A DNA stretch of 10,132 nucleotides. It comes from a virus. Below are positions 8,020 to 10,132 of the stretch, piece after piece; positions within the stretch are counted from its first letter, which is position 1; every line of letters starts with the position of its first letter. The notes beneath the pieces are model-generated. The model was not told where the DNA came from. It was given only the letters and a program-made list of their open reading frames with translations, and ran no database searches. Where the stretch lies: the IMG/VR virus record IMGVR_UViG_3300032053_009076. One strand, given 5' to 3'. The position numbers were made by a program, and so were the translations under genes.

Positions 8020-8175
8020 ATGATGAAAATGGCATCGTTTACACTTCCAGACCAGACTGTTGTCTTTTTAGAAAAACTGGTAGAGAAAACTGGTTTGAAA
8101 AAATCTGATCTTGTTCGAAGAGCAATTGAAGATTTTTATAAGAAGAAGATTAGAGATGAGAAAGCTGAATCCTAA
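8020..8175 (+). CDS. Ribbon-helix-helix (CopG/Arc/MetJ-like) DNA-binding protein, 51 aa.
   Basis: ATG at 8020 with 'aggag' SD at -9. 'MMKMASFTLPDQTVVFLEKLVEKTGLKKSDLVRRAIEDFY' is a classic RHH: N-terminal beta-strand, helix A, then a 'KSDLVRRAI' helix B. Confidence 0.75.
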   Translation: MMKMASFTLPDQTVVFLEKLVEKTGLKKSDLVRRAIEDFYKKKIRDEKAES

Positions 8176-8914
8176 TCCAGTTTTTTATGTTTATGCCTAT
8201 TTAGATCCACGAAAACCAGGAAATTTTCAATATAGAGATTCTATTATATTTAATTGTGAACCATATCTAATTGGAAAAGGTCATAAAAAGAGAGATGTAT
8301 CTCATTTGAAATCAGTATTAAATGATAAAATTGATAGATGCAATCTTCATAAGACTTATAAAATTAAACAAATTCTAGAGGAAGGATTTGAACCAATTAT
8401 TATAAGAATTTATGAAAATCTTTATGAAGACCAAGCATTTGAAACCGAAATATTTATGATACGCCAGATTGGTAGACGAGACTTAGATTTGGGTCCTCTT
8501 GTAAATTTATCAGCTGGTGGAGAAGGAAATTCCGGATATATTCAAACAATAGAACACAAACGTTTGCATGGAAAACAGATCAGAGAAAATTATAAAGATC
8601 ATAACTTTCGTGAGAAATACTCCAAGATAATGCAGGAATGCTGTAATTGCCCAGAATATAAAGAAAAACAGAAAATGAATTCTCTTCGTTTATGGAAAGA
8701 TCAGGAATATAGAAAAAGACGAAAAGAATCTATAACAGAAGAAACTAAGAAAAAACAAAAAGATAAACTTAGTATTAAAATGATGGAAAAATGGAAAGAT
8801 CCGGAATTTAGAAATAAAATATTAATGGCAAAATTACATAAAAAGGAATTAAGAAAATGTGCGGAATTAGTGGATACTTCGCAAGAGAGTCAAAACCTAA
8901 CAAAGGCATTCTAA
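8156..8914 (+). CDS. Free-standing GIY-YIG homing endonuclease with C-terminal tandem basic (NUMOD-like) DNA-binding repeats. Alternative upstream start at 8111.
   Basis: 'PVFYVYAYLDPRK…YLIGKGHKKRD…ETEIFMIRQIG…VNLSAGGEGNSG' gives GIY…YIG with conserved Arg, Glu and Asn in canonical spacing. The C-terminal half has three Lys/Arg-rich repeats ('HKRLHGKQIRENYKD', 'KMNSLRLWKDQEYRKRR', 'KLSIKMMEKWKDPEFRNKI'). The gene overlaps both the RHH gene's 3' end and the downstream gene's 5' end. Confidence 0.8.
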   Translation: MRKLNPNPVFYVYAYLDPRKPGNFQYRDSIIFNCEPYLIGKGHKKRDVSHLKSVLNDKIDRCNLHKTYKIKQILEEGFEPIIIRIYENLYEDQAFETEIFMIRQIGRRDLDLGPLVNLSAGGEGNSGYIQTIEHKRLHGKQIRENYKDHNFREKYSKIMQECCNCPEYKEKQKMNSLRLWKDQEYRKRRKESITEETKKKQKDKLSIKMMEKWKDPEFRNKILMAKLHKKELRKCAELVDTSQESQNLTKAF

Positions 8915-10132
8915 GAGGTCTTTTCGAAGAAGGTTCAAAAAGAGGCACAGATGGTTTTGGTTGGGTTTTAATACATAGAAAACAATGTATTTCGCACAGA
9001 AAATATAAAGGTCTTCCTGATTTTCGTGACGTTTTACATGGTATGCCTGTTACTTTAGAACTTGGTGATATAATATTATCCAATTCACGTGCGGCGCCAG
9101 AAACAGAATCCGCAGTAAATGAATCAAAACTAGAACAAACTGTTCAACCAGTAATATTGGATGATCAGGGGTTATATTTAGTTCATAATGGAAGTTGCTC
9201 TAACTTTATTGTTAATGAACTTAAAAAGAAATATACTTTTCAAACAGACATCGATTCAGAAGCTATACTTTGGGCATATATTAAATTTGGTAGAAATATG
9301 CAAGAAGCTATGGAATATCTTTCTGGGGGTTTTGCTTTTCTGATGATGGATACGATAAAAAATAAACTTTTTGCAGTCACAACCCACAACCCATTATATA
9401 CTGGATATGTACGTGGTCATGGTTTATTCTTTTCTTCTACTGAAGAAGGTGTATTACAGACAGTTTCTAAGTTAAAAGGGGTAACCATCAACAAAAATAC
9501 TTTAACTGTTTGGGAAGATTATTATATTCATCAGATATCAGAGAATACTATACAAGAAATAGATCTTGACAGCGGGATGGTAAATGAATATAAATTTGAA
9601 CCAAGATATGTTACGAGCACCTATGATTGTTACAATAAAGAAATGAATGATAAACCAGTTGTTCTTGTAGCATCCTCTGGCGGACTAGATAGTTCAACCA
9701 CCTTAGCGGCCCTCAAGGAGGCGGAGATGAATCCTGTTGCTGTACACTTTAAGTACGGGCATCGTGGCCAGGAGGCGGAGGAAATCGCTATAAGGGAGGT
9801 TGTAAAGTTACTTGATATTCCATTATATACGTTCAATATTTCGGAAAACATGAAGATATTGGATTCTGGAATGTTGACCGATAAAGATGCCAAGATTATT
9901 ACAGGAACAGATGCCGGTTTGAAAACAACGGCTGCTTGGACTGTATATAGGAATCATCTATTCATGACTTATATGGGGGCCTTGGCAGAATCACTGATAA
10001 TGAAGGACAATTACTCACAGGTATTCTTGACCGGTGGATTTATGAATCTTTCTGAATCAGGCAGTTATCCGGACAATTCAGAAAGATTCATTGATGCAGC
10101 AATGAAGTTTTTCAAGTTTTCTATAACCGGTA
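8857..10132 (+). CDS. Gat-QueC fusion, 3'-truncated. It has an N-terminal class-II (Ntn) glutamine amidotransferase domain fused to a QueC-like PP-loop ATPase (7-cyano-7-deazaguanine synthase family). Proposed role: 7-deazaguanine (dADG/dG+ type) DNA modification.
   Basis: Starts 'MCGISGYF' (Ntn catalytic Cys2) with the 'LVHNGSCSNF' GATase motif. Then 'PVVLVASSGGLDSSTTLAALKEAEMNPVAVHFKYGHRGQEAEEIAIREVVKLLDI' matches the QueC N-terminal signature 'SGGxDS…(Y/F)xYGQRH…E'. The frame is open to the window end. SD 'aagga' is at -14. Confidence 0.8.
   Translation, partial: MCGISGYFARESKPNKGILRGLFEEGSKRGTDGFGWVLIHRKQCISHRKYKGLPDFRDVLHGMPVTLELGDIILSNSRAAPETESAVNESKLEQTVQPVILDDQGLYLVHNGSCSNFIVNELKKKYTFQTDIDSEAILWAYIKFGRNMQEAMEYLSGGFAFLMMDTIKNKLFAVTTHNPLYTGYVRGHGLFFSSTEEGVLQTVSKLKGVTINKNTLTVWEDYYIHQISENTIQEIDLDSGMVNEYKFEPRYVTSTYDCYNKEMNDKPVVLVASSGGLDSSTTLAALKEAEMNPVAVHFKYGHRGQEAEEIAIREVVKLLDIPLYTFNISENMKILDSGMLTDKDAKIITGTDAGLKTTAAWTVYRNHLFMTYMGALAESLIMKDNYSQVFLTGGFMNLSESGSYPDNSERFIDAAMKFFKFSITG

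What the first reader, a model, noticed from the sequence alone, without database searches (positions are those of the whole stretch)
8857..10132. Gat-QueC fusion suggests 7-deazaguanine hypermodification of the element's DNA
An Ntn glutamine amidotransferase ('MCGI…HNG') is fused to a QueC-type PP-loop ATPase ('SGGLDS…YGHRGQE'). This is the architecture reported for phage enzymes that convert preQ0-pathway intermediates into 7-amido-7-deazaguanine or related bases. Those bases are then inserted into DNA by a DpdA transglycosylase as anti-restriction protection. Its presence implies that dpdA, folE, queD and queE homologues lie nearby just outside the window, and that this genome's G residues are partly replaced.
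Basis: partly seen in the sequence, partly recalled or inferred. Interest (0 to 1): 0.6.

Follow-up and report, generated by a model that had tools for sequence, protein, structure and literature searches.

The report
Divergent Gat-QueC in a huge phage
The window ends in a real glutamine-amidotransferase/QueC fusion gene from an uncultured large phage that also carries two other 7-deazaguanine pathway genes nearby. The enzyme that would put the modified base into DNA was not found in the 34.5 kb that could be recovered.

Summary
Window 8857-10132 encodes the first 425 residues of a 567-aa protein. It has an N-terminal Ntn glutamine amidotransferase (Cys2, HNG) fused to a QueC-type PP-loop domain (SGGLDS). 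It is not AsnB.

It is a divergent relative of the phage and archaeal Gat-QueC family, about 25% identical to the 9g-type proteins. It shares their YPDN motif where canonical QueC has YPDC. It is about 95 aa longer and has lost the fourth zinc cysteine.

The element is a large tailed phage, with relatives on contigs up to 307 kb. I rebuilt 34.5 kb of the same phage from contigs 99.5-99.96% identical to the window. FolE lies 8.4 kb downstream of gat-queC and QueD lies 17.9 kb upstream. No QueE or DpdA was found in that stretch.

A 7-deazaguanine pathway is present and DNA modification is the most likely purpose. The known Gat-QueC product is dG+, not dADG, and DpdA is unproven for this phage.

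A DNPH1/deoxyribosyltransferase-like gene and a Ubl-E2-E1-JAMM operon sit nearby.

The parts
8857..10132 (+). gat-queC, 5' part: codons 1-425 of a 567-codon gene that continues past the window end
   Evidence: Translation. Pfam GATase_6/7 plus QueC. Full-length identical protein P0001.
8860..8862 (+). Cys2 codon, the N-terminal nucleophile of the Ntn (class II) glutamine amidotransferase after Met removal
   Evidence: MCGI start. M1 and C2 are conserved in at least 90% of 45 family members. The residue aligns with Cys1 of GlmS and PurF Ntn domains in PDB profile hits 1xff and 1ecb.
8857..9510 (+). Ntn glutamine amidotransferase domain (about residues 1-218). It includes the invariant residues R29, G30, R78, P81, E82, H110, N111, G112, D133.
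   Evidence: AsnB 1ct9 and GlmS 1xff match only this part.
9511..9651 (+). Inter-domain segment (W219-E-D-Y-Y ... D-L-D-S-G ... P-R-Y). It is conserved in this family and largely absent from 9g-type Gat-QueC.
   Evidence: Alignment with JenP1 and Vid5 Gat-QueC. Invariant W219, E220, Y223, P249.
9652..10132 (+). QueC-type PP-loop ATP pyrophosphatase domain, cut by the window end at residue 425
   Evidence: Pfam QueC 2.4e-17. The best PDB sequence match is B. subtilis QueC 3bl5, residues 266-473.
9676..9693 (+). PP-loop SGGLDS (residues 274-279), the ATP pyrophosphate-binding motif
   Evidence: S274, G276, D278, S279 invariant.
9754..9780 (+). Y-G-H-R-G-Q-E-A-E (residues 300-308), this family's variant of the canonical QueC YxQxHxxE substrate/ATP motif
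   Evidence: The canonical motif is defined in PMC13082051.
9949..9954 (+). R365-N366, the RN of the QueC VPxRN motif (invariant)
10066..10077 (+). Y-P-D-N (residues 404-407) in place of canonical QueC YPDC. The Asn is invariant here and shared with the 9g-type Gat-QueC proteins of JenP1 and Vid5. In relative L011 an intein is inserted immediately before the Ser that precedes this motif.
8111..8914 (+). GIY-YIG homing-endonuclease gene abutting and overlapping the gat-queC start. It is mobile: a second copy lies between the RNAP genes in L001 but not in L002.
   Evidence: Pfam LEM-3_GIY-YIG 1.9e-11. Gene tables of L001 and L002.

Best explanation
The gene encodes a divergent member of the Gat-QueC family.

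Proposed mechanism:
- An N-terminal Ntn amidotransferase hydrolyses glutamine through Cys2. It delivers ammonia to a QueC-type ATP-dependent PP-loop domain that acts on the 7-substituent of a 7-deazaguanine (CDG or preQ0).
- By analogy with the tested phage 9g enzyme, the most likely product is the archaeosine base G+, with preQ0 or ADG as intermediates or alternatives.

Context:
- The gene belongs to a large tailed phage that carries its own GTP cyclohydrolase I (FolE) and CPH4 synthase (QueD), dispersed over about 27 kb.
- The most likely purpose is to replace part of the guanines in the phage DNA with a 7-deazaguanine. This would need a transglycosylase encoded elsewhere in the genome (DpdA or the DpdA-like A6 type).

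Shown here: the domain architecture, the catalytic motifs, the kinship to 9g-type Gat-QueC, FolE and QueD in the same phage, and a complete cluster with a DpdA-like gene in one relative.

Inferred: the product, the DNA destination, and the existence of a transglycosylase and QueE in this phage.
For: Architecture and motifs.

Kinship to known Gat-QueC:
- tblastn against phages returns only Gat-QueC genes of 9g-like, PaMx25-like, Vid5 and Vibrio phages, at 24-27% identity over 83-100% of the query.
- The best PHROG is phrog_10428, the family of those proteins, at 1.6e-31.
- YPDN is shared, where canonical QueC has YPDC.

Pathway genes in the same phage:
- FolE at L002 15950-16711 (Pfam 4.5e-37, PHROG 1.4e-42).
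- QueD at L115 4489-4941 (precomputed PTPS hit, phmmer 2e-21).
- L002 is 99.6% and L115 99.96% identical to the window.

Pathway genes near the family in relatives:
- FolE occurs in at least 10 distinct loci.
- QueD occurs in L006, L025 and L029.
- QueE occurs in L017 and L025.
- A second, standalone QueC-like gene lies next to Gat-QueC in L029.

Experimental precedent: 9g Gat-QueC plus DpdA put dG+ into E. coli DNA even in a queC deletion strain (PMC6884629).

Bacterial host: an SLT lytic transglycosylase gene lies in the syntenic 236-kb relative. G+ has no known tRNA role in bacteria (established knowledge).

Signs that the gene is a conserved, selected core gene: an intein at the active-site motif in L011 and homing endonucleases next to the gene.
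Against: DpdA, which the literature calls the signature of 7-deazaguanine DNA modification (PMC10516641), was not found by Pfam, by a DpdA HMM, by an HMM of the A6 family or by hhalign in any of these:
- the 34.5 kb of this phage;
- about 40 kb of the 236-kb relative;
- the flanks of more than 20 other loci.

A motif scan of IMG/VR found 34 contigs with the A6 DpdA-like type. Only one of them, L017's contig, overlaps the 19 Gat-QueC contigs.

QueE is also missing from the recovered sequence.

The protein is only about 25% identical to any tested Gat-QueC. It has lost the fourth zinc-site cysteine (CGSG instead of CxxC), so its chemistry could differ.

Only about 15% of a probable 200-kb-plus genome was seen, so absence cannot be concluded either way.
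Confidence: 0.6

Rival explanations
1. The pathway makes 7-deazaguanine for DNA, but the base enters at the nucleotide level rather than through a DpdA. A phage DNPH1/nucleoside-2-deoxyribosyltransferase-like enzyme (c42, P0201) would cleave dGMP and either deplete it or swap guanine for the deazaguanine base. Kinases and the phage polymerase would then incorporate it.
For: c42 lies 3.5-4 kb upstream of the window start in the same phage (L115 10001-10486). It lies directly after FolE in L004 and L123 and beside SbcC in L011.

Its AF2 model (pLDDT 81) matches only DNPH1/Rcl and the CMP N-glycosidases BcmB and MilB among the top 50 PDB hits (E 1.7e-5 to 1.7e-3). Weak sequence hits go to the same superfamily. 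The Glu in GSMCETSYALG is invariant.

No DpdA was found near any member of this sub-clade. Hutinet et al. 2019 explicitly left open 'undetected 2'-deoxyribosyltransferases'. A dNMP kinase sits in the L017 cluster.
Against: c42 was found in only three lineages. It could simply be a dNMP-pool or salvage enzyme.

All 7-deazaguanine phages analysed so far have a DpdA, and insertion is held to be post-replicative (PMC10516641).

No activity data exist. Most of the genome is unseen, so a DpdA may exist elsewhere.
Confidence: 0.1
2. The phage que genes serve RNA rather than DNA. They would boost or redirect host tRNA modification: queuosine precursors in a bacterial host, or archaeosine in an archaeal host.
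For: Al-Shayeb et al. 2020 listed QueC/D/F of huge phages as 'queuosine synthesis and tRNA modification' (PMC7162821).

No DpdA was found here.

Archaeal Gat-QueC makes G+ on tRNA (PMC6884629 introduction).

Some family members are filed under archaeal or CPR metagenome bins.
Against: Bacterial TGT needs preQ1, and neither QueF nor a tgt gene was seen. G+ is not a bacterial tRNA base.

The syntenic relative encodes an SLT peptidoglycan hydrolase, which points to a bacterial host.

9g Gat-QueC did not complement tRNA-Q synthesis in E. coli.

L017 couples the family to a DpdA-like protein.
Confidence: 0.15
3. The QueC domain ligates a 7-deazaguanine carboxylate to a protein, as Cap9 and QatC do (protein deazaguanylation). 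This might be linked to the neighbouring Ubl-E2-E1-JAMM operon.
For: Gat-QueC lies directly after the JAMM gene in L006, L011, L016 and L122.

QueC-family enzymes are known to modify proteins.

There are weak hits to Cap9 (PDB 9nto_B at 1.5e-4; PADLOC QueC at 3.2e-9).
Against: Those hits cover only the P-loop region.

The family keeps the QueC small-molecule motifs (RN, YPD-N, K) and a Gat domain, which implies ammonia chemistry.

Many family members lack the Ubl module nearby (L013, L015, L019-L024, L120, L121). FolE and QueD linkage fits base synthesis.
Confidence: 0.04
4. It is an asparagine synthetase B or another AsnB-like amidotransferase, unrelated to deazaguanines.
For: The length (567 aa) and the general plan (Ntn GATase plus PP-loop domain) resemble AsnB. 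The top NCBIfam hit by E-value is asn_synth_AEB at 2.8e-19.
Against: That hit scores 69.5 bits against a cut-off of 267.

There is no Pfam Asn_synthase hit.

The PDB profile search matches AsnB only over residues 93-211, while QueC matches 266-473.

QueC-specific motifs are present, and the gene is linked to FolE and QueD.
Confidence: 0.01

Closest known systems
Phage Gat-QueC of Queuovirinae and related siphophages (Enterobacteria phage 9g and JenP1 AKA60902, Pantoea phage Vid5 gp38), together with archaeal Gat-QueC
   Same: Ntn GATase with Cys2 fused to a QueC PP-loop domain. SGGxDS, a Y-G-x-R...E motif, RN, and YPDN instead of YPDC are shared, as is the conserved Lys. Both are encoded by tailed phages that also carry FolE and QueD.
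   Different: Identity is only 24-28%. The protein is 567 aa against 471-487 aa: it has an extra conserved inter-domain segment, a 6-aa insert in the QueC core, a longer Cys region and a roughly 70-aa C-terminal tail.

The zinc motif is reduced to three Cys (C462, C485, C493, with CGSG instead of CGxC).

The que genes are dispersed over about 27 kb instead of forming a compact queE/gat-queC/queD/folE/dpdA cluster. No adjacent dpdA was found.

The host genomes are huge phages with their own RNAP beta/beta' genes. Intein-containing and split (Gat plus QueC) versions exist.
Canonical QueC (7-cyano-7-deazaguanine synthase; B. subtilis 3bl5, E. coli QueC)
   Same: The C-terminal domain fold and the motifs SGGxDS, RN, YPD and Lys. 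The first Zn cysteine also aligns.
   Different: Canonical QueC has no Gat domain and uses free ammonia. It has YPDC and YxQxHxxE and a four-Cys C(x)8CxxCxxC site, all altered here.
Asparagine synthetase B
   Same: The same overall logic: an Ntn glutamine amidotransferase feeding ammonia to an ATP-pyrophosphatase domain. The length is similar.
   Different: The synthetase domain here is QueC-type, not Asn_synthase.
Cap9 (type IV CBASS) and QatC, QueC-family protein-deazaguanylating enzymes
   Same: The QueC scaffold and PP-loop.
   Different: They have no Gat domain, act on protein N-termini and sit in defence operons with a CD-NTase or QatABD. Here only the P-loop region matches, and the context is FolE and QueD in a phage.
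ArcS/RaSEA and QueF-L (other archaeosine synthases)
   Same: Possibly the same end product, G+.
   Different: They are unrelated folds and work on preQ0 already inserted in tRNA.

Membership tests
Gat-QueC (glutamine amidotransferase-QueC fusion, archaeosine-type 7-deazaguanine amidotransferase) | N-terminal class II (Ntn) glutamine amidotransferase domain with Cys as the first residue after Met | tested here: met
   MCGI start. GATase_6 and GATase_7 at E 1e-13 to 1e-14. C2 is conserved in at least 90% of 45 members.
Gat-QueC (glutamine amidotransferase-QueC fusion, archaeosine-type 7-deazaguanine amidotransferase) | C-terminal QueC-family PP-loop domain with SGGxDS | tested here: met
   Pfam QueC 2.4e-17. 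QueC 3bl5 is the best PDB sequence match for residues 266-473. SGGLDS is invariant.
Gat-QueC (glutamine amidotransferase-QueC fusion, archaeosine-type 7-deazaguanine amidotransferase) | Detectable full-length homology to experimentally studied Gat-QueC (phage 9g type) | tested here: met
   tblastn gives 24-27% identity over 83-100% of the query, at E down to 2e-22, and hits only Gat-QueC genes. phmmer against JenP1 gives 1e-25. The YPDN signature is shared.
Gat-QueC (glutamine amidotransferase-QueC fusion, archaeosine-type 7-deazaguanine amidotransferase) | QueC four-cysteine zinc site, C(x)nCxxCxxC | tested here: not met
   Only three conserved Cys are present (C462, C485, C493). The last CxxC is CGSG. 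JenP1 and Vid5 keep CGxC.
Gat-QueC (glutamine amidotransferase-QueC fusion, archaeosine-type 7-deazaguanine amidotransferase) | Genomic linkage to preQ0 pathway genes (folE, queD, queE) | tested here: inconclusive
   FolE is 8.4 kb downstream and QueD 17.9 kb upstream in the same phage. QueE was not found in 34.5 kb. It is present next to family members in L017 and L025.
Gat-QueC (glutamine amidotransferase-QueC fusion, archaeosine-type 7-deazaguanine amidotransferase) | Catalyses glutamine- and ATP-dependent formation of G+ or preQ0 from CDG or preQ0 | not testable with these tools
   This needs an enzyme assay or heterologous expression with LC-MS/MS.
Phage 7-deazaguanine DNA modification system (DpdA-dependent) | A DpdA/TGT-superfamily DNA transglycosylase encoded by the phage | tested here: inconclusive
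   [not shown]
Phage 7-deazaguanine DNA modification system (DpdA-dependent) | 7-deazaguanine nucleosides present in virion DNA, or resistance of the DNA to restriction enzymes with G in their sites | not testable with these tools
   The phage is uncultured and known only from metagenomes.
Asparagine synthetase B | Asn_synthase (PF00733) C-terminal domain and a score above the AsnB equivalog cut-offs | tested here: not met
   There is no PF00733 hit. TIGR01536 scores 69.5 bits against a cut-off of 267, and PRK09431 scores 54.7 against 499.

The most novel reading that the evidence does not exclude
This clade of huge phages makes 7-deazaguanine DNA without any DpdA. Gat-QueC would supply the free base. 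A DNPH1/nucleoside-2-deoxyribosyltransferase-like enzyme (c42) would exchange it into dGMP or deoxyguanosine before replication. That would be the first nucleotide-level (pre-replicative) route to deazaguanine DNA.
Probability: 0.1. Interest if true: 0.8.

Novelty: new variant of a known kind. Interest (0 to 1): 0.45.

Why it matters
Gat-QueC is the enzyme that turns the preQ0 pathway toward archaeosine-type bases, which shield phage DNA from restriction enzymes. So far it is characterised only in about 60-kb siphophages and in archaea.

This result shows a large, well-conserved and structurally distinct branch of the family in uncultured huge phages. The database search returned 141 protein clusters for this branch, on contigs up to 307 kb. 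In these phages the que genes are scattered among replication and transcription genes, and no known DpdA sits beside them.

If these phages do modify their DNA, one of two things follows. Either their transglycosylase is a new type, such as the unnamed DpdA-like family found here. Or the base enters by a different route. Either outcome would extend the rule that every deazaguanine phage has a DpdA.

If they do not modify DNA, the function of a glutamine-dependent QueC in a bacterial virus is open.

The practical value is a set of candidates for expression tests, and a marker for modified-DNA phages in metagenomes.

Tried and rejected
AsnB reading: rejected.

Finding the window's source:
- A megablast of the whole window against 50,697 phage records found no match.
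- An exact 52-mer search in IMG/VR found no match.
- Exact-protein look-ups of the GIY-YIG and MVP ORFs with my start codons found nothing on record.

Candidates for DpdA that were rejected:
- c2, the roughly 300-aa gene most often found near gat-queC. It has no Pfam or PDB hit, no conserved Asp or Cys pattern, and no hhalign signal.
- c29 and c19, the genes after FolE. They have no hits.
- The 329-aa radical-SAM/SPASM protein and the 350-aa radical-SAM protein c46. They resemble QueE only in the radical-SAM core.

Reverse searches for DpdA in the Gat-QueC contigs:
- A strict one-motif DNA pattern found only 3 contigs.
- A two-motif pattern found 34 contigs, of which only L017's is shared with the Gat-QueC set.

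Other searches that led nowhere:
- Walking 10 kb upstream in the 236-kb relative gave no que or dpdA gene beyond QueD.
- The tail of L123 contains only repeat proteins.
- A PDB sequence search with the E2-like profile gave nothing. Only the HPN-Cys loop aligns to UBE2D2.
Full report
OBSERVATION

Window 8857-10132 (+) is an open reading frame that starts with ATG-TGC (Met-Cys) and runs off the window end.

Pfam finds GATase_7 and GATase_6 (residues 86-197, E 2e-14 and 9e-13) and QueC PF06508 (residues 270-421, E 2.4e-17). A protein 100% identical over the window part, P0001, is 567 aa.

The AsnB-like length is misleading:
- NCBIfam AsnB equivalogs reach only 55-70 bits against cut-offs of 267-499.
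- Pfam gives no Asn_synthase hit.
- A profile of 45 family members matches AsnB structures only over the amidotransferase part (residues 93-211). B. subtilis QueC (3bl5) is the best match for residues 266-473.

WHAT THE PROTEIN IS

The only annotated relatives in 50,697 phage records are the Gat-QueC genes of 9g-like (JenP1, JenP2), PaMx25-like, Vid5, Vibrio and Alteromonas siphophages. Identity is 24-27% over 83-100% of the query. The best PHROG is their family.

I aligned the protein with JenP1 and Vid5 Gat-QueC, with B. subtilis QueC and with family members. I then read the alignment against the canonical QueC signature published in 2026 (PMC13082051).

Features kept:
- SGGxDS
- the RN of VPxRN
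- the conserved Lys (K439)
- the first zinc cysteine (C462)

Features changed:
- YxQxHxxE becomes Y-G-H-R-G-Q-x-x-E.
- YPDC becomes YPDN.
- The zinc site keeps only three conserved Cys (C462, C485, C493), with CGSG in place of CxxC.

YPDN is invariant in 45 members. It is also present in both 9g-type proteins, so it looks like a shared derived mark of Gat-QueC enzymes. This rests on only two known sequences.

Compared with the 471-487-aa phage proteins, this family has four additions: a conserved inter-domain segment, a 6-aa insert, a longer Cys region and a roughly 70-aa tail.

Three observations indicate a functional, conserved gene:
- The family is large. 141 protein clusters matched the query, on contigs up to 307 kb.
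- In L011 an intein (Cys1 ... His-Asn/Ser+1) sits immediately before the Ser of SYPDN.
- In L021-24 and L026 the Gat and QueC halves are separate genes with a DNA ligase gene between them.

THE ELEMENT

The window is 99.5-99.96% identical to four ENA and JGI contigs. Joined together they give 34.5 kb of the same phage. The gene order is:
- GyrB-like and TopoIV-A-like genes
- QueD/PTPS (L115 4489-4941)
- helicase
- Mre11
- c42 (161 aa)
- SbcC
- c2
- a 209-aa protein ending ...RHNKAG-F
- a protein with an HPN...Cys motif
- ThiF/E1
- a JAMM protein
- an MVP-like protein
- an RHH protein
- GIY-YIG
- gat-queC
- five small ORFs
- RNA polymerase beta'-like and beta-like genes
- FolE (L002 15950-16711)
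- two unknown genes

Relatives share this synteny on contigs of 221, 236 and 275 kb. They also encode a T4-type terminase, so this is a large tailed phage. An SLT peptidoglycan hydrolase in the 236-kb relative points to a bacterial host.

THE PATHWAY

FolE lies 8.4 kb downstream of gat-queC (Pfam 4.5e-37). QueD lies 17.9 kb upstream (phmmer 2e-21 against JenP1 QueD). Both are therefore in the same phage as the window gene.

Across relatives:
- FolE is near Gat-QueC in at least ten distinct loci.
- QueD is near it in L006, L025 and L029.
- QueE is near it in L017 and L025.
- A second, standalone QueC-like gene follows Gat-QueC in L029.

This ties the family to 7-deazaguanine synthesis. In the experimental precedent, 9g Gat-QueC plus DpdA placed dG+ in 5-18% of plasmid guanines, even in a queC deletion strain (PMC6884629).

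THE MISSING TRANSGLYCOSYLASE

The literature treats DpdA as the signature of deazaguanine DNA. Its most distant subfamilies (DpdA3, DpdA4) were found only by HHpred (PMC10516641).

I searched all ORFs and six-frame translations of the recovered loci with four methods: Pfam, an HMM of eight diverse phage DpdAs, hhalign and motif inspection.

Nothing was found in any of these:
- the 34.5 kb of this phage
- about 40 kb of the 236-kb relative
- the flanks of the other loci

There was one exception. In L017 a 470-aa protein, three genes downstream of Gat-QueC and in the same cluster as QueE, carries all the invariant DpdA motifs: IDSGGFQ, LD, FH, HILGG and YDSSG. Its family (A6, about 460 aa, no Pfam domain, on contigs up to 312 kb) has these properties:
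- It aligns to the DpdA profile at E 3.4e-5.
- It is modelled confidently as a TIM barrel (pLDDT 90).
- In each of the 10 IMG/VR loci that carry a full-length A6 gene at about 31-34% identity to the query, a QueE gene lies 1-4 kb upstream of it.

A6 therefore looks like an undescribed DpdA-like subfamily of huge phages.

A two-motif DNA scan of IMG/VR found A6 in 34 contigs. Only L017's contig is shared with the 19 Gat-QueC contigs. So the window's own sub-clade either has a different transglycosylase, has it far from the que genes, or has none. Only about 15% of a genome of this size was visible, so this stays open.

MECHANISM PROPOSED

Shown:
- A Cys2 Ntn glutaminase is fused to an ATP-PPase domain of QueC type.
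- The domain keeps the substrate-pocket residues of QueC but differs at the Cys of YPDC.

Inferred:
- Glutamine-derived ammonia is channelled to an adenylated 7-carboxy or 7-amido intermediate, or to the nitrile of preQ0. This would give G+, or preQ0 or ADG.
- The base is then placed in phage DNA to block restriction.

In a bacterial virus G+ has no known tRNA use. This favours the DNA reading over the tRNA reading, which was the published annotation for huge-phage que genes (PMC7162821).

ALTERNATIVE INSERTION ROUTE

c42 lies 3.5-4 kb upstream of the window start. In L004 and L123 it lies directly after FolE. It has no Pfam hit. Its model (pLDDT 81) matches only DNPH1/Rcl dNMP N-hydrolases and the CMP N-glycosidases BcmB and MilB, at E 1.7e-5 to 1.7e-3. 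An invariant Glu sits where the nucleophile is expected.

Members of this superfamily act through a deoxyribosyl-enzyme intermediate that can be resolved by water or by another base. The enzyme could therefore deplete dGMP, or build a deazaguanine nucleotide. This is a lead and not a finding.

NEIGHBOURS

Window 643-4851 reads as a ubiquitin-like conjugation operon:
- 643-1272: a protein with a conserved C-terminal ...RHNKAG followed by 0-1 residue.
- 1294-2910: a protein with invariant G-N-H-P-N-V-N...C-x-G. It aligns to the HPN-Cys85 loop of UBE2D2 at E 6e-4.
- 2892-3938: a ThiF/E1 protein that hits CBASS Cap2 E1-E2 models at 6e-13.
- 3997-4851: a protein with a perfect JAMM motif, E...HxH-x7-S-xx-D.

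This operon directly precedes gat-queC in four other lineages. Many family members lack it, so a functional link is not implied.

VERDICT

The gene is a real and correctly recognised Gat-QueC. It belongs to a divergent huge-phage branch and lies in a phage that carries at least FolE and QueD. DNA hypermodification is the best-supported purpose but is not demonstrated, because neither DpdA nor QueE was found in the accessible sequence.

- Novelty: new variant of a known kind.
- Interest: 0.45.

Noticed in passing
window 643-4851 (+): This stretch looks like a phage-encoded ubiquitin-like conjugation operon.
- 643-1272: a Ubl-like protein with a conserved C-terminal ...RHNKAG plus 0-1 residue.
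- 1294-2910: an E2-like protein with an invariant GNHPNVN...C motif.
- 2892-3938: a ThiF/E1 protein that hits CBASS Cap2 E1-E2 models.
- 3997-4851: a JAMM peptidase with E...HxH-x7-S-xx-D.

The same order is conserved in L006, L011, L016 and L122, directly upstream of gat-queC.
   Followed up: partly
window 4869-7445 (+): An 858-aa protein carries Major Vault Protein shoulder (8.9e-28) and vault repeat (1.1e-10) domains. It was found only in the window's own lineage (L001-L003, L116). An MVP homologue in a phage is unusual.
   Followed up: no
L115 10001-10486 (3.5-4 kb upstream of the window start); also L004 19310-19825 and L011 3-518: A 161-aa protein (P0201) with no Pfam hit. Its AlphaFold model matches DNPH1/Rcl dNMP N-hydrolases and CMP N-glycosidases of the nucleoside 2-deoxyribosyltransferase superfamily. 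It lies directly after FolE in one lineage.
   Followed up: partly
[not shown]
   Followed up: partly
L011 10001-12997: The Gat-QueC ORF is 998 aa because an intein of about 425 aa (Cys1 ... His-Asn/Ser+1) is inserted just before the SYPDN active-site motif. Other members of 665-724 aa (P0010, P0011, P0045, P0080) may carry similar insertions.
   Followed up: partly
L021-L024 and L026 (e.g. L021 7810-8685, 8682-9995, 9992-10915): The Gat half (about 290 aa) and the QueC half (about 307 aa) are separate genes, with an ATP-dependent DNA ligase gene between them. Many database proteins with only the Gat domain (P0102-P0120) fit this split form.
   Followed up: no
window 8111-8914 (+); L001 13393-14157: GIY-YIG homing-endonuclease genes show presence/absence polymorphism between strains 99.5% identical. 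One overlaps the gat-queC start. A second lies between the RNAP beta' and beta genes in L001 but is missing from L002.
   Followed up: no
L002 10051-15999 (about 2.9-8.8 kb beyond the window end): Adjacent genes encode RNA polymerase beta'-like (910 aa) and beta-like (1061 aa) subunits. They are syntenic with gat-queC and FolE in most relatives. One relative (L029) has two beta-like genes.
   Followed up: no
L014 2301-3353; L017 10715-11782; L025 12921-13886: A radical-SAM protein of about 350 aa, distinct from QueE, recurs next to Gat-QueC in three distant lineages. In L025 it follows an SDR reductase and FolE. It may act on the deazaguanine side chain.
   Followed up: no
L123 13333-14322 and 17213-17986: Two proteins are made of tandem repeats of about 22 aa (YNWE.DSWAIAQYCPDKLDP...). 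Their function is unknown.
   Followed up: no
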